DNA of 64,000 nucleotides, taken from the IMG/VR virus record IMGVR_UViG_3300039076_000082, positions 20,956 to 84,955 of that record; one strand, written 5' to 3'. Both the position numbers and the translations under genes were made by a program. This document shows, piece after piece, positions 6,404 to 16,448 of this stretch (position 1 is the stretch's first letter; every line of letters begins with the position of its first letter). The stretch is from a virus (taxonomy: Duplodnaviria > Caudoviricetes). The notes beneath the pieces were generated by a model. That model worked only from the letters and a program-made list of their open reading frames with translations, was not told the origin of the DNA and searched no databases.

Positions 6404-7432
6404 ATGAAAACAACTACTGAGCTACTCCGCTGGTTCTATAGCAACTATCCTCGCTTAGTTGAGGAAATGAGAAACTGCGACCACAACTTATCCTACGATG
6501 AGCCCAATAGCTATCATTTAGAAGGCGATGTTTGGTGTCATGTTATGATGATTCTGAAACAGATTCAACAAGCTAACTACTTGACTGATTATGATAAGTA
6601 TATCTATTCAGTTATAGCTCTCTGTCACGATTTAGGGAAGCCTGAAGCGCGACAAATCAGAGACGGTAAAGTAACATTCTACAACCATGATGCTATTTCA
6701 GCATTTAAAGCTATCGAAGTACTAAATCACTTAGCACTTTCCCAAGAAGAAAAAGAAGTAATCTTTCAAACTATAGCTCACCATACTCAAGTATTCAGAT
6801 TGACTCGTCAACAATTATTTGACAAGCTACTTGACGCTAAACTTAGAAATACTATAGAAACTTTTGGAGTATTCGACCATGATGGACGTTTTCATGATAA
6901 TCAAGAAGTAGAAAAGTCTTATACTTTATGTGAAGATTTGGTAGTAAAATATAGCTCTCAGAACGCTCCTAAAACTGTTACTGTAATGGTAGGACTTCCT
7001 GCTAGTGGTAAATCTACTTATATTGAACAAAACGCTTCAGAAGGCTCGTTTATCGTATCTAGAGATAGGATTGTAGAAGACTTAGGAGACGGTATTACTT
7101 ACTCTGAGAAGTGGTATAGTGCTAATCAAAAAGAAGTAGATGAAGTGCTTCAAGAAGTATTCAAGCAAGCCAAAAAAGAAAACGAAGTATTTGTCGATAT
7201 GACCCATTTGAGTACTAAGTCTAGACGTAGAACTTTGTCGCATTTCGGTAAAGAGTGGAAGAAGAAGTGTGTGGTAGTACTACCAAGTTTGACCCAACTA
7301 ACTAACAATAGCGAATATCGTAAAAATACTACTGGTAAATTTGTATCGGATAGTGTAGTATTAGAAATGATGAGTAGGTTTAGCAGTCCTACTTATAGCG
7401 AAGGGTTCGATGAGATTGAGTGGAGATTTTAA
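6404..7432 (+). CDS. HD-Pnk: HD-domain phosphoesterase fused to P-loop polynucleotide kinase
   Basis: HLEGDVWCH...CHDLGK HD motifs; GLPASGKST Walker A, SRD and DMTH..R kinase motifs. Confidence 0.85.
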   Translation: MKTTTELLRWFYSNYPRLVEEMRNCDHNLSYDEPNSYHLEGDVWCHVMMILKQIQQANYLTDYDKYIYSVIALCHDLGKPEARQIRDGKVTFYNHDAISAFKAIEVLNHLALSQEEKEVIFQTIAHHTQVFRLTRQQLFDKLLDAKLRNTIETFGVFDHDGRFHDNQEVEKSYTLCEDLVVKYSSQNAPKTVTVMVGLPASGKSTYIEQNASEGSFIVSRDRIVEDLGDGITYSEKWYSANQKEVDEVLQEVFKQAKKENEVFVDMTHLSTKSRRRTLSHFGKEWKKKCVVVLPSLTQLTNNSEYRKNTTGKFVSDSVVLEMMSRFSSPTYSEGFDEIEWRF

Positions 7433-8119: not shown

Positions 8120-8211
8120 GTCTAGGTAAGAATATGATTTAGATCGGATTCGAGCCAAAAGAGAAGTTAGAGTATTGAATCATTCTCGTAAACAATACTT
8201 CCACCTAGACA
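8120..8211 (+). ncRNA. candidate structured RNA with paired ends and possible pseudoknot
   Basis: TGTCTAGGT 8119-8127 / ACCTAGACA 8203-8211; GAGTATTG 8170-8177 / CAATACTT 8193-8200; loop AATCATTCT complementary to AGAAT(AT)GATT 8129-8139. Confidence 0.5.
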
Positions 8212-8220
8212 TTTTATATA

Positions 8221-8295
8221 TCCGAGTTCGTTTATGTAGTAAGACGGGAGATTGTGATTCTCCTCAAAAGGGTGCAAATCCCTTACTTGGAACCA
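8221..8295 (+). tRNA. tRNA-His (GUG), non-canonical
   Basis: Full cloverleaf: TCCGAGT/ACTTGGA acceptor, GTTT/AGAC D stem, GGAGA/TCTCC anticodon stem with GTG at 8254-8256, AAGGG/CCCTT T stem, encoded CCA. Confidence 0.9.
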
Positions 8296-8307
8296 TTAAG
8301 GAGCATT

Positions 8308-9474
8308 ATGTCATTTAAAACTTGTTTCACTAAAATCTTAGCAGTTAATCCTCATCCGGATACTGAGACTACAGGATTAGATATCGCAACAGTTTACGGA
8401 TTTAACATTGTTGTGAAACGCGGATCAATGAAAGTTGGAGATATCGTTTACTATATCCCTATTGACTCAGTATTACCTCAAGATTTAGAAGAACTTATTT
8501 TTCCACCGACAGGGAAAGTAAAGTTATCAAATTCAAGAGTACGTCAAATTAGACTTCGTAAATTCCCATCGGAAGGTCTGTTAGTGGAAGCCGATACTAT
8601 CCACTCCTTCATGGTAGCACAAAGAGCTTTACGCCCACAAATTACTTCTAATGCGATGTTAGAGCAAGATACTAGCCATATTTTAGGTATTAAAAAATTT
8701 GAACCACCTGCTCCAAAAGAAACTATTTCAGGTAAACCTATTACTTCTAAAAAAAGATTAGCTGAACACCCTCAATTTCATAAGTATAATGGGTTAGATG
8801 CACTAAAATGGGGTAATCCTTTTACCGAAGACGAACAAGTATCTATTCAACTCAAAATGCACGGAACAAATGCTAGATTTGGTAAATTAGCAACAAAACC
8901 CAAAAACCTATTTCAGCGTATTTTGAACCTACTTAAATTATTACCAGAGTATGAGACTAGATACGGTAGCAACAATGTGGATATTACTCTTAAAAACGGC
9001 GCTAGTGGGTTCTACGACACTGACGTATATGGTACGGCTTTTAAAGCTTGTAATGCTGATACTAAAGTAAAAGAGAATGAGATGATATTTGGAGAAATTG
9101 TAGGTGAAGGTATTCAGAAGAATTACCACTATGGACACAAGACTCCACATTTTGTATTATTTGATGTCAAAGTATTTACTGATAAAAACGATTTAAAAGG
9201 TCGTTGGTTAACTCCTTCAGAAGTAGAAATTTATGCTAAAGAAAGAGGATTTGAGATGGTTCCTGTGCTATATAAAGGCTTTTATGACAAAGCTACTATG
9301 GAATCATTGATCTCAGGAGTAGATCCTTATTACCCTCCACATAAAATTAGAGAAGGTATTGTTATTAAATCTGAGAGTAACTATAATGATCCAATGAGTA
9401 GTGCTGGTAAGAAAGCTAGAAAGGTTATTTCACCAGAATACTTGGATGATAAGTCAAATACCGATTTACACTAA
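8308..9474 (+). CDS. ATP-dependent RNA ligase, DRB0094/Rnl5 family
   Basis: N-terminal HP...LDIATVYGFNIVVKRG...GD.VYYIPIDSVLP domain; motif I KMHG; motif IV EGIVIK; true start at ATG 8308 after AAGGAG (track start 8254 lies in the tRNA anticodon). Confidence 0.9.
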   Translation: MSFKTCFTKILAVNPHPDTETTGLDIATVYGFNIVVKRGSMKVGDIVYYIPIDSVLPQDLEELIFPPTGKVKLSNSRVRQIRLRKFPSEGLLVEADTIHSFMVAQRALRPQITSNAMLEQDTSHILGIKKFEPPAPKETISGKPITSKKRLAEHPQFHKYNGLDALKWGNPFTEDEQVSIQLKMHGTNARFGKLATKPKNLFQRILNLLKLLPEYETRYGSNNVDITLKNGASGFYDTDVYGTAFKACNADTKVKENEMIFGEIVGEGIQKNYHYGHKTPHFVLFDVKVFTDKNDLKGRWLTPSEVEIYAKERGFEMVPVLYKGFYDKATMESLISGVDPYYPPHKIREGIVIKSESNYNDPMSSAGKKARKVISPEYLDDKSNTDLH

Positions 9475-10333: not shown

Positions 10334-10345
10334 TTGGGAGAATTT

Positions 10346-10966
10346 ATGAAAAATATTAGCAATACTTTTGTTACTTCAGATTTACATTTCGGACATAAAG
10401 CGGTTATTGAATACTGTAATCGACCATTTAAAAGCCTAGAGGAAATGGACGAAACTTTAATTAAAAACTGGAACAAGGTTGTTAAACCTATAGACAAAGT
10501 TTATGTATTGGGCGATTTCTTCATGTATCACAAAAAACCTAAGCTGAGAGAGATTATGTCTCGTTTAAACGGCACTAAGATTTTAGTACTAGGGAACCAC
10601 GACATGAGCGATAGAGAGATGGAATCTATAGGATTCTCTTTTGTTTGTAGAAGTGCAACTATAAATTTAGCTAATGAATTAGTAAATTTGTCACATTTCC
10701 CATATAAAAGAAGTAAGTTATACTACCTATTTTGGGATACGCTACATAAACTATTTCCTAAACGATTTTTTAGACCGAGAAGATTTCATTATATGTTAGA
10801 GGATGATGGTAAGTACCTTCTACATGGGCACACGCATGGGAAAGATAAAGTTACTGCTGGTAAAATGATTCATGTTGGTGTAGACGCTTGGAATTATACT
10901 CCTGTACCTTTACAAAAGATTGCGGATATTATCGGTAAGTTGAAAAAAGGTGAAATAATTAGTTGA
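10346..10966 (+). CDS. calcineurin-like metallophosphoesterase
   Basis: SDLHFGH, LGDF, GNHD, HGHTH motifs; start corrected to 10346. Confidence 0.92.
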   Translation: MKNISNTFVTSDLHFGHKAVIEYCNRPFKSLEEMDETLIKNWNKVVKPIDKVYVLGDFFMYHKKPKLREIMSRLNGTKILVLGNHDMSDREMESIGFSFVCRSATINLANELVNLSHFPYKRSKLYYLFWDTLHKLFPKRFFRPRRFHYMLEDDGKYLLHGHTHGKDKVTAGKMIHVGVDAWNYTPVPLQKIADIIGKLKKGEIIS

Positions 10967-10991
10967 CAATACTTTTTAGCTATTGTAAACT
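10963..10991 (+). promoter_or_regulatory. sigma70-type promoter of ncRNA candidate
   Basis: TTGACA-17 nt-TAAACT; predicted +1 near G10998. Confidence 0.7.
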
Positions 10992-10997
10992 ATATTT

Positions 10998-11374
10998 GAG
11001 CTAGCGATGTGGTAAGCTGAGAAAGTTGTTACAAGAGGTTCGATTCCTCGGGTACTAGATGGGTTCATAACAACAAGTAACTGGAGACACTTCCTTTGCC
11101 GGCACGACAAGAGTTCCTGCGAGTACCTTCAACAATCGTGTACTGGTTGGTACTTTAAATAGAAAAGTCAGAGTAGCGCCTGACCTAGCTCATTATTTAA
11201 AGGTTCTACTGTAAAATTTGATGATTAATAATTGGAGCTTTTCATATTGATGTTCAAGCTGGAAAGTAGCGCCTCTGACAATGCTGACTCAATATAATAC
11301 TAGTCGAAAAGTAGGTGCGGTTCGCTTTATACCGCTTAATGAAATGGATGATCAGCGTACCATTAGCCTTTAAA
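10998..11374 (+). ncRNA. candidate two-domain structured RNA with tRNA-like T-arm
   Basis: Closing stems GAGCTAG 10998-11004 / CTAGCTC 11185-11191 and TTTAAAGGTT 11196-11205 / AGCCTTTAAA 11365-11374; T-arm GAGG-TTCGATT-CCTC 11035-11049; no sizeable ORF; GC above background. Confidence 0.6.
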
Positions 11375-11520
11375 TCCTTTATTCGGAGATAATTATGATT
11401 ACTTTAATTTTTGTGCTAATATACTACTATATACTCTTCAATAGTTCAACTACTGAAACAGATTTATATAAACAATATGACTATATCGGTATTTGTAAAT
11501 CAAATCCTTGGGACTAACAA

Positions 11521-15569: not shown

Positions 15570-16448
15570 GTGGAAAATAAGTACTTAGAAAAAGGACAAT
15601 CTCTCATATTACCATTTGGTATATTTACTGCTCCTATTTCTGGAAATTACTCTATACATGAAGATTCTTGTTTATACAATCCTTCTTATATAAATATTTT
15701 TAATATAGTAAAAAGTAGCATTACAATAGATAGCAGTAAACTTGAAGGCTACTATACTAGTATTCCTAAACAACTAGACCAAGTACTTGAATACGTGAAA
15801 GATCGTTATAAACTTAACAATGATACTGCTAATAAACTCTATATAGCTGGTGGAGCGATTCGTAGTTTAATTTTAAACGAAGAAGTCAAAGATTACGATA
15901 TCTTTATTGAGAATGACGAAGTAAAAACGCTTCTACTAGAAGAATCTAAAACCAAATGTAATGGTTCTTATATCTCAGATAACGCTATTACTTTATACTC
16001 TCCTTATGGTCAGATTCAAATTATTACGACTAAAACTGGCTTTCCTTGGGAAGTAATTGATGAGTTTGACTTTGTAATGAATCAGAACTACTACTGTCCT
16101 AATCTAACAGTAGCAGGAGTTTGTGATGGGTTGTATATTGCCGATATTGATACTGTAATGAGTAAGAAGCTCAAGATAAATAAACATTGTCGTAACAAGC
16201 TCGGAACACTAGCTAGATTAGCTAAGTTTTTAGAACGTGGCTACTTACCTCCAAATAAGTTGGACTTAGTAGAGTTAGGAATAGCTATTTCAAAACTTAA
16301 TCCAATTACTACCTTGACAGAATTAGCTTCCGAGAGTAAATTGTACTTGAATGCGGAAGAAGTTTCAGGTCTATGTGATGGGACTACTTTAGCATTTTGT
16401 AGTGACGAAGAGATAGATAGTTTAAATAATAGAGGGAGTGGGTTATGA
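15570..16448 (+). CDS. nucleotidyltransferase of the poly(A) polymerase/CCA-adding head-domain type
   Basis: YIAGGAIRSL...KDYDIF; FDF motif; RL.KF..RGY. Confidence 0.75.
   Translation: MENKYLEKGQSLILPFGIFTAPISGNYSIHEDSCLYNPSYINIFNIVKSSITIDSSKLEGYYTSIPKQLDQVLEYVKDRYKLNNDTANKLYIAGGAIRSLILNEEVKDYDIFIENDEVKTLLLEESKTKCNGSYISDNAITLYSPYGQIQIITTKTGFPWEVIDEFDFVMNQNYYCPNLTVAGVCDGLYIADIDTVMSKKLKINKHCRNKLGTLARLAKFLERGYLPPNKLDLVELGIAISKLNPITTLTELASESKLYLNAEEVSGLCDGTTLAFCSDEEIDSLNNRGSGL

What the first reader, a model, noticed from the sequence alone, without database searches (positions are those of the whole stretch)
10998..11191. ~195-nt RNA with paired ends, canonical T-arm and pseudoknot; possible permuted tRNA mimic (Y-RNA-like)
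Seen: the predicted +1 is exactly the start of GAGCTAG/CTAGCTC. GTTGTTA 11025-11031 / TAACAAC 11068-11074 encloses a T-arm (GAGG-TTCGATT-CCTC). GCACGA 11102-11107 / TCGTGT 11136-11141 has a loop GAGTACC able to pair with GGTACTT 11149-11155 (pseudoknot) or with GGGTACT 11050-11056 right after the T-arm, which would form an acceptor-like stem in permuted order. GTCAG-AGTAGCGC-CTGAC closes the 3' side. Established: bacterial/phage YrlA Y RNAs pair their ends and carry a T-arm followed by an acceptor-like stem. No Ro60 gene is in the window. Inference: an undescribed phage tRNA-mimic RNA, possibly a decoy for host nucleases or RNPs.
Basis: partly seen in the sequence, partly recalled or inferred. 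Interest (0 to 1): 0.75.

Follow-up and report, generated by a model that had tools for sequence, protein, structure and literature searches.

The report
Patchwork tRNA-like RNA in a phage
A roughly 195-base non-coding gene in an uncultured phage is built from pieces of tRNA-like genes and sits, next to RNA-repair genes, in a promoter-proximal slot where related phages carry other odd tRNA look-alikes; it is not a Y RNA, and its function is untested.

Summary
The stretch looks like a real RNA gene:
- It lies in a 428-nt ORF-free gap.
- It is the local GC maximum (44-48% against 33% for the genome).
- It starts at the +1 of a TTGACA-17-TAAACT promoter.
- It holds the only exact tRNA T-loop in the window.

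Seven related Logan assemblies have the same promoter. In five of them (L013-L017) its +1 opens a different non-canonical tRNA-like RNA. Each has a 7-bp terminal helix (6 bp in L017), a 5-bp hairpin abutting the 3' strand, then a single unpaired discriminator-like base (A in four, T in L017). In strain L026 it opens RNA1 itself, and in L018 it opens a small ORF.

RNA1 fits that frame but is a mosaic:
- a canonical T-arm, followed by a strand that pairs 7/8 with 11120-11127 (nested, or "permuted", order);
- a 3' third collinear with the 5' half of an 83-nt tRNA-like RNA of relatives.

Not supported:
- Overall fold stability is no better than shuffles (z +0.13).
- The GCACGA/TCGTGT helix and the pseudoknot get no support.
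- YrlA membership fails: no Ro60 in the genome, no GNCGAA motif, no Rfam hit.

RNA1 was found only in three near-identical strains, so its own helices cannot be tested by covariation.

Verdict: a new variant of phage tRNA mimic. Function unproven. Interest moderate.

The parts
10963..10991 (+). Sigma-70-type promoter, TTGACA-17 nt-TAAACT. Predicted +1 is G10998.
   Evidence: 10 of 12 matches. The same promoter, with conserved spacer sequence, is present in L013-L018 and L026.
10998..11004 (+). 5' strand of the terminal, acceptor-like helix (GAGCTAG).
   Evidence: Pairs 7/7 with 11185-11191, or 8 bp with the flanking T/A (I7). Ensemble probability is about 1. Relatives have a different 6-7-bp helix at the same place.
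11008..11033 (+). Predicted hairpin at the position of a D-arm (TGTGG/TTACA plus AGCT/AGTT). Model only.
   Evidence: Constrained fold. L015 has a hairpin at the same position sharing TGTGG..TGAG. The similarity is not significant on its own.
11034..11050 (+). Canonical T-arm: GAGG stem, TTCGATT loop, CCTC stem, flanked by an A.G mismatch.
   Evidence: It holds the only exact GGTTCGATTCC in 64 kb. Ensemble probability is 0.61. It is strand-specific.
11051..11058 (+). 3' strand of the inner acceptor-like helix, directly abutting the T-arm.
   Evidence: Pairs 7 of 8 positions with 11120-11127 (ARAGORN drawing). Not predicted by thermodynamics (p = 0).
11059..11119 (+). 61-nt spacer enclosed by the inner helix. 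It contains a GGAG-ACAC-TTCC hairpin, and the only difference from strain L026 (G11063 to T, unpaired in all models).
11120..11127 (+). 5' strand of the inner acceptor-like helix (CGAGTACC).
11129..11150 (+). Hairpin TCAAC / GTTGG with a 12-nt loop. It starts 1-2 nt after the inner helix (2 nt to the CAAC/GTTG core used), the D-arm position of the permuted reading.
   Evidence: Spacing test. Its 3' strand is also the acceptor-5'-like GGTTGG of the tRL-B-like segment. Ensemble p = 0.
11144..11184 (+). Segment collinear with the 5' half of the 83-nt tRNA-like RNA 'tRL-B' of relatives. It comprises a GGTTGG strand, a small hairpin CTT/AAG (11153-55 / 11165-67), and a hairpin with the loop GUAGCGC (11167-84).
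   Evidence: 36-nt ungapped alignment, 25 identities. 51 of 5000 dinucleotide shuffles reach the score. Both stems differ from tRL-B by changes that keep the pairing. The GTCAG hairpin has p = 0.97.
11185..11192 (+). 3' strand of the terminal helix (CTAGCTC) plus an unpaired A in the discriminator position. No encoded CCA.

Best explanation
RNA1 (10998-11192) is a transcribed, tRNA-derived non-coding RNA. It occupies a hypervariable 'tRNA-like gene slot' directly behind a conserved early-type promoter in a clade of uncultured phages.

The outer frame is the same as in relatives: transcription starts on the first base of a 7-bp acceptor-like helix, a 5-bp hairpin abuts the 3' strand, and one unpaired A follows. 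Inside the frame it is a mosaic of at least two tRNA-like lineages:
- a canonical T-arm, whose following strand pairs with 11120-27, so that a second acceptor/T minihelix is formed in circularly permuted order;
- a copy of the 5' half of the 83-nt tRNA-like RNA tRL-B.

Proposed mechanism (inferred, not shown): the RNA presents tRNA-like acceptor/T-arm surfaces to tRNA-binding proteins. These could be RNase P or Z, the phage's PolyA_pol-head nucleotidyltransferase, the phage HD-Pnk/RNA ligase, or host tRNA-cleaving defence nucleases. It would then act as a mimic, either a decoy or a substrate, in the phage's tRNA damage-and-repair programme.

It is not a decoding tRNA and not a Y RNA.
For: An RNA gene:
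- promoter with +1 at the helix start;
- ORF-free gap;
- local GC peak of 44-48% in a 33% genome;
- a unique, strand-specific T-loop;
- the same arrangement in three independent assemblies.

Slot:
- L013-L018 and L026 share the promoter.
- In five of them (L013-L017) it is followed by a different tRNA-like RNA with a paired terminal helix, an abutting 5-bp hairpin and then a discriminator-like base (A; T in L017). L026 carries RNA1 itself there and L018 a small ORF.
- Two of them are weak tRNA calls.
- tRL-B shows a compensatory G-C to U-A change in its acceptor helix between L014 and L026.

Permuted minihelix:
- 7/8 pairing directly after the T-arm.
- Acceptor, 2 nt, 4-bp hairpin, 1-2 nt, then a 5-bp/7-nt hairpin is reached by 3 of 20,000 shuffles.
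- ARAGORN calls the permuted construct at 90% of threshold, against 29 of 3000 shuffles.

tRL-B-like third.

Context: HD + P-loop kinase, RNA ligase, metallophosphoesterase, a PolyA_pol-head NTase and tRNA-His lie within 9 kb.
Against: - The fold is no more stable than shuffles (z +0.13).
- The inner helix and hairpin Y have zero ensemble probability, and the permuted models lie 6-9 kcal/mol above the MFE.
- RNA1 itself was found only in near-identical strains (1 substitution in 194 nt), so none of its own helices has covariation.
- The spacing test was defined after seeing the sequence. It is partly explained by the tRL-B homology, which reads the same hairpins as acceptor strand and D-arm rather than D-arm and anticodon arm.
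- The candidate anticodon loops are non-canonical.
- L018 has a small ORF in the slot instead of an RNA, so no slot RNA is indispensable.
- There are no expression data.
Confidence: 0.45

Rival explanations
1. Recombination debris. Two or more tandem tRNA-like genes in a recombination-prone slot exchanged halves. The nested complementarity is inherited from the parental genes rather than selected. The transcript has no sequence-specific role beyond perhaps being a structured 5' end of the operon transcript.
For: - The slot content differs in almost every relative, and L018 has none.
- L026 differs from the window by a 368-nt block holding tRL-B and a 63-aa ORF.
- RNA1 divides into a 61-nt and a 72-nt unit, each the size of a slot RNA, separated by a 61-nt spacer. 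Fragments of tRL-B occur in RNA1, and a shorter tRL-B-like word occurs in RNA2.
- The MFE z-score is about 0.
Against: - GC content and all helices are intact rather than decayed.
- The outer and inner helices are perfect or near perfect, while the cross-combinations are not.
- The outer frame obeys the same rules as the conserved tRNA-like RNAs of relatives.
Confidence: 0.3
2. Cis-acting leader. RNA1, together with the conserved downstream element (11234-11377), is the 5' untranslated region of the operon starting at 11395. It acts on mRNA stability, processing (a tRNA-like 'punctuation' site for RNase P or Z) or translation.
For: - No second + strand promoter-like site lies between 10991 and 11508.
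- No + strand terminator follows RNA1.
- A fully paired 5' end starting at +1 is conserved in design.
- RNA2 islands are conserved up to the ribosome-binding site.
Against: - The occupants of the slot have tRNA-like 3' ends. Several have an encoded CCA, which points to released RNAs.
- L026 has a terminator-like hairpin with a T-run after RNA1.
Confidence: 0.1
3. A true permuted or split tRNA. The inner domain is cut out or re-joined, with the phage HD-Pnk and RNA ligase sealing the ends and the NTase adding CCA, to give a working tRNA.
For: - Permuted order of T-arm/3' strand and 5' strand.
- Heal-and-seal enzymes and a PolyA_pol-head NTase are encoded nearby.
- Permuted tRNA genes exist in algae and one prasinovirus (PMC3673656).
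Against: - Neither candidate anticodon arm is canonical: one has a poor stem with two mismatches, the other lacks U33.
- The D-loop lacks GG.
- There is no bulge-helix-bulge endonuclease or other known cutting activity.
- The ORFs are dense under code 11, so no suppressor is needed.
Confidence: 0.05
4. A YrlA-type Y RNA that works with a Ro60 (Rsr) protein.
For: - Paired ends.
- A T-arm followed by a stem and then a small hairpin. Two tandem RNAs sit beside RNA-repair genes, as in the Salmonella rsr-yrlBA-rtcBA operon (PMC4201824, PMC7790460).
Against: - No TROVE protein in the complete genome, while the control genomes ring.
- No GNCGAAN0-1G motif.
- The D-like loop lacks the conserved GG.
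- No Rfam hit even at E<=10.
Confidence: 0.03
5. A two-piece (permuted) tmRNA spanning RNA1 and RNA2.
For: ARAGORN at 80% of threshold reports a permuted tmRNA at 10970-11360 with the tag GAFHIDVQAGK.
Against: - Random Markov sequences give 6-9 such calls per 85 kb.
- There is no G3-U70 pair and no encoded CCA.
- The 'tag' frames of relatives share no C-terminus (read).
- No tmRNA-family Rfam hit.
Confidence: 0.01

Closest known systems
YrlA bacterial/phage Y RNAs (Chen et al. 2014, PMC4201824)
   Same: Ends paired; an internal T-arm followed by an acceptor-like stem and then a small hairpin, i.e. a tRNA-like module in permuted order. Often two in tandem, beside RNA-repair genes.
   Different: No Ro60 gene, no Ro-binding GNCGAA motif, and no conserved D-loop. 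It is about twice as long, and the acceptor-like stem encloses 61 nt rather than a small loop. No covariance-model match.
Two-piece (circularly permuted) tmRNA genes of alpha-proteobacteria, cyanobacteria and others
   Same: The T-arm and acceptor 3' strand are encoded upstream of the acceptor 5' strand, with an intervening segment, and the precursor ends pair.
   Different: No G-U identity pair, no CCA, no tag reading frame with a conserved end, and no pseudoknots. No Rfam match, and the ARAGORN call is at noise level.
Permuted tRNA genes (Cyanidioschyzon, Mamiellophyceae, prasinovirus BpV1)
   Same: Order is 3' half, spacer, 5' half, with paired precursor ends.
   Different: Those are decoding tRNAs, matured by the eukaryotic/archaeal splicing endonuclease through a circular intermediate. 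Here there is no canonical anticodon arm and no such enzyme. None is known from bacteriophages, to my knowledge.
Ordinary phage tRNA clusters with T4-type Pnkp/Rnl tRNA repair
   Same: tRNA-type genes beside a kinase-phosphatase and an RNA ligase. The T-arm is canonical.
   Different: Not recognised by ARAGORN or the Rfam tRNA model. 195 nt, mosaic, leaderless (starts at +1), and no CCA.

Membership tests
YrlA / bacterial Y RNA | Encoded within about 4 kb of, and on the same strand as, a Ro60 (TROVE) gene | tested here: not met
   PF05731 search of the whole 84,955-bp genome found no match at E<=1; the controls ring.
YrlA / bacterial Y RNA | GNCGAAN0-1G motif near the 5' end (Ro-binding strand) | tested here: not met
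   No CGAA anywhere in 10998-11192; the nearest is AGCGATG at 11003-09. Criterion from PMC4201824.
YrlA / bacterial Y RNA | Conserved T, AS and D stem-loops in that order | tested here: inconclusive
   The T-arm is canonical. A stem and small hairpins follow in that order, but the stem encloses 61 nt and the D-like loop lacks GG.
YrlA / bacterial Y RNA | Match to a curated covariance model | tested here: not met
   No Y-RNA-type family among the matches at E<=10 in 10850-11450.
Canonical tRNA | Contiguous cloverleaf found by tRNA finders or the Rfam tRNA clan | tested here: not met
   ARAGORN at default and at 95% finds none. No Rfam tRNA-clan match.
Canonical tRNA | T-arm with GTTCGAnTC loop and G53-C61 | tested here: met
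   11035-11049.
Permuted tRNA gene | 3' half upstream of 5' half, which re-joined give a cloverleaf | tested here: inconclusive
   The re-joined construct is called at 90% of the ARAGORN threshold (1.0% of shuffles). The call has a mismatched anticodon stem and a weak D-stem.
Permuted tRNA gene | Bulge-helix-bulge junction and splicing endonuclease for circularisation | not tested
   No such enzyme is expected in bacteria, and none was among the family matches of the 20 or so ORFs scanned. The genome was not searched for one.
Two-piece tmRNA | G3-U70 pair, CCA end, and a tag frame with a conserved hydrophobic end | tested here: not met
   The 3-70 pair is G-C and there is no CCA. The ARAGORN call is at noise level. 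No Rfam tmRNA match.
Slot tRNA-like RNAs of this phage clade (defined here) | +1 of the conserved promoter is the first base of a 7-bp helix; a 5-bp hairpin abuts the 3' strand; then an unpaired A | tested here: met
   Table. RNA1 shares all three features with L013a, L014/L016, L015 and L017 (L017: 6 of 7 pairs, then T).

The most novel reading that the evidence does not exclude
The first circularly permuted, two-domain tRNA-like RNA in a bacteriophage. A canonical T-arm/acceptor minihelix is nested inside a second acceptor-like frame. It would be cut at the inner acceptor by RNase P and Z, tailed by the phage NTase, and used with the phage heal-and-seal enzymes. The result would be either a split tRNA-like effector or a decoy for host anticodon nucleases. 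It would be one member of a rapidly diversifying arsenal of non-canonical tRNA mimics in this phage clade.
Probability: 0.1. Interest if true: 0.85.

Novelty: new variant of a known kind. Interest (0 to 1): 0.5.

Why it matters
Phage tRNAs are increasingly seen as counter-measures against host tRNA-cleaving defences. A promoter-proximal slot that swaps highly deviant tRNA look-alikes between related phages, beside a kinase-phosphatase, an RNA ligase and a tRNA-type nucleotidyltransferase, would be a new place to look for RNA decoys or repair substrates. None of these look-alikes is found by standard tRNA or Rfam searches. It also shows that tRNA annotation misses a class of phage genes. RNA1 itself is the most elaborate occupant seen, but its structure rests on a single sequence.

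Tried and rejected
- Rfam at gathering score on the window and on L013-L015, and in E-value mode on 10850-11450, L013, L017 and L026. This gave only chance hits, plus weak tRNA-Sec-model hits (18-20 bits) for two relatives' slot RNAs.
- blastn against 50,697 phage records: no match.
- Exact T-arm + acceptor pattern in IMG/VR and in GTDB genomes: none. So it is not a copy of a host tRNA 3' end, and not an attP core, among the representatives searched.
- RNA2-motif pattern in IMG/VR and JGI metagenomes: only chance matches in coding DNA.
- Relatives found through the upstream phosphoesterase (L002-L012) lack the RNA.
- nhmmer of the whole gap against the loci: no hit. It also missed the short conserved RNA2 islands later seen by eye.
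- Searching the whole Logan contigs by handle is not possible.
- A permuted tmRNA call was rejected after calibration.
- Direct alignment of RNA1 with RNA2 shows no paralogy beyond short shared words.
- L047, the last look-up, has no slot.

Full report
**Where it lies.** The window is bases 20956-84955 of a complete 84,955-bp IMG/VR phage record. The genome is 33% GC and distant from any cultured phage.

The finding sits in a 428-nt gap, 10967-11394, with no ORF over 44 aa. The gap lies between a metallophosphoesterase gene (10334-10966) and a 40-aa ORF followed by a 154-aa Peptidase_M15-like gene.

Upstream are these features:
- an HD + P-loop kinase (6404-7432);
- an HNH gene;
- tRNA-His (8221-8295);
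- an RNA ligase (8254-9474).

A PolyA_pol-head nucleotidyltransferase lies at 15570-16448.

**Check of the observation.** A TTGACA-17-TAAACT promoter at 10963-10991 places +1 at G10998, the first base of the terminal helix.

The stretch is the GC maximum of the surrounding 4 kb (44-48%). It holds the only exact GGTTCGATTCC in 64 kb. These points, and the ORF-free gap, argue for an RNA gene.

The global fold is no more stable than shuffles (z +0.13). In the ensemble:

| Element | Ensemble probability |
|---|---|
| Terminal helix | about 1 |
| GTCAG-AGTAGCGC-CTGAC hairpin | 0.97 |
| T-arm | 0.61 |
| GTTGTTA/TAACAAC | 0.33 |
| GCACGA/TCGTGT | 0 |
| Pseudoknot partner | at most 0.09 |

This is one of only two such clusters in the genome.

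**Known families.** Rfam gives nothing at gathering score, or at E<=10, apart from a chance snoRNA hit outside the stretch. ARAGORN finds only tRNA-His. No TROVE/Ro60 gene exists in the genome.

The YrlA criteria from Chen et al. 2014 (PMC4201824) are a GNCGAAN0-1G motif, conserved T/AS/D stem-loops, and a Ro60 gene within 4 kb. The first and third are not met, and the stem-loop order is met only loosely.

A relaxed ARAGORN call of a permuted tmRNA is noise. Random sequences give 6-9 such calls per 85 kb.

**Relatives.** Homologues of the upstream phosphoesterase led to loci without the RNA.

Homologues of the downstream 154-aa protein led to Logan assemblies that keep the promoter. The table below shows what follows it. 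In the first four rows the promoter's +1 falls on the first base of the terminal helix of the (first) RNA listed.

| Locus | What follows the promoter |
|---|---|
| L013 | a 59-nt mini tRNA-like RNA, then a 78-nt tRNA-Ile-like RNA with CCA |
| L014, L016 | an 83-nt RNA with CCA (here called tRL-B) |
| L015 | a 104-nt RNA |
| L017 | a 71-nt tRNA-Cys-like RNA with CCA |
| L018 | a small ORF |

In every RNA-bearing case:
- the terminal helix pairs 6-7 of 7 positions;
- a 5-bp hairpin abuts the 3' strand;
- an unpaired discriminator-like base follows (A; T in L017).

None passes ARAGORN or Rfam thresholds. Two give weak tRNA calls.

tRL-B differs between L014 and L026 by a compensatory G-C to U-A change in its acceptor helix.

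RNA1 has the same outer frame. A downstream element, 11234-11377, has conserved islands in all of these loci but L013. So RNA1 is the variable cargo of a conserved slot.

**RNA1 itself.** RNA1 occurs only in the window and in two near-identical assemblies. L027 is identical. L026 has one substitution, G11063 to T, in an unpaired stretch, plus a 368-nt block after RNA1 that carries tRL-B and a 63-aa ORF. No covariation test of RNA1's own helices is therefore possible. The three independent assemblies do exclude an assembly artefact.

**Anatomy.** The strand after the T-arm (11051-58) pairs 7 of 8 positions with 11120-27. The T-arm/3' strand thus precedes the 5' strand, which is the permuted order.

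After that 5' strand come three elements at tRNA-like spacing:
- 2 nt;
- a 4-5-bp hairpin;
- 1-2 nt, then a 5-bp hairpin with a 7-nt loop.

Only 3 of 20,000 dinucleotide shuffles reproduce this. ARAGORN calls the re-joined construct at 90% of its threshold, as it does two relatives' slot RNAs. It does so for only 29 of 3000 shuffles.

These tests were framed after seeing the sequence, and there is a caveat. The stretch 11145-11180 aligns without gaps, with 25 of 36 bases identical, to positions 2-37 of tRL-B. Those positions hold its acceptor 5' strand, D-arm and GUAGCGC-loop hairpin. Both stems are changed in ways that keep the pairing, and 51 of 5000 shuffles reach the score. By homology, therefore, those hairpins are one arm out of register with the permuted-cloverleaf reading.

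RNA1 is best described as a mosaic of at least two tRNA-like lineages, folded through a nested outer and inner helix. The nested models lie 6-9 kcal/mol above the MFE.

**Interpretation.**
- Shown: an unannotated, tRNA-derived RNA gene at a conserved promoter-proximal slot; a canonical T-arm; and a terminal helix and 3' hairpin whose pairing is kept, with different stems, at matching positions in relatives' tRNA-like RNAs.
- Inferred: the nested fold; recognition by tRNA enzymes; and a mimic, decoy or substrate role in the phage's tRNA repair programme.
- Main rival: the pattern is a by-product of recombination among tandem tRNA-like genes, with no specific function.

I give the functional-mimic reading 0.45, recombination debris 0.3, a cis-acting leader 0.1, a true permuted tRNA 0.05, a Y RNA 0.03, and tmRNA 0.01.

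The scan had noted this same stretch once more on this genome (e1-5948330), but not on other DNA.

Noticed in passing
window 11234-11377 (also L014 5303-5465, L015 5336-5467, L016 2111-2253, L017 2299-2463, L018 633-743, L026 1212-1357): The element downstream of RNA1 has four conserved islands in seven phages, with variable sequence between them: GGAGCYTT, ATWCTAG, GAAAGTAGG and CCTTTAAATCC. It ends at the ribosome-binding site of the next gene. GGAG followed by a short ATG frame in most copies suggests a leader peptide or a cis-regulatory leader. No Rfam match.
   Followed up: partly
L014 5200-5283, L016 2009-2092, L026 about 870-955: An 83-nt tRNA-like RNA (tRL-B) with an encoded CCA. It has a 3-bp D-stem, a hairpin with loop GUAGCRY, a small variable hairpin and a 9-nt 'T-loop'. 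Between L014 and L026 it shows a compensatory G-C to U-A change and a U.G to U-A change in the acceptor helix. ARAGORN and Rfam do not detect it.
   Followed up: partly
L026 about 780-1210, against window 11204-11225: The near-identical strain carries a 368-nt block absent from the window. It holds a terminator-like hairpin with a T-run, tRL-B, and a 63-aa ORF with a hydrophobic segment. The window's RNA2 instead holds a 24-nt word resembling part of tRL-B (11254-11277).
   Followed up: partly
window 8120-8211 and 8221-8295: A second promoter (TTGACA at about 8087) starts on a 92-nt RNA with a 9-bp terminal helix, followed by tRNA-His, whose T-loop reads TGCAAAT. The L015 slot RNA has a similar loop (TGCAAGT). 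Leaderless, end-paired RNAs seem to be a habit of this phage.
   Followed up: no
window 15570-16448: A 292-aa protein with a PolyA_pol head domain (the tRNA CCA-adding / poly(A) polymerase class). It is a candidate for adding CCA to the CCA-less tRNA-like RNAs.
   Followed up: partly
window 11186-11165 (minus strand): Read on the minus strand, the GTCAG hairpin followed by a T-rich run scores as an intrinsic terminator. No minus-strand gene is nearby, so it is probably incidental.
   Followed up: no
window 11050-11155: Four GTAC words lie within 106 nt. This is one of two such clusters in the 85-kb genome, where 0.15 are expected. It could reflect duplicated acceptor strands, or a DNA-level protein-binding array.
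   Followed up: partly
window, pattern GTAGCRYC: There are 12 matches in 64 kb against 2.8 expected, and no shuffle reaches 12. Most lie on the + strand inside minus-strand structural genes. Unexplained.
   Followed up: no
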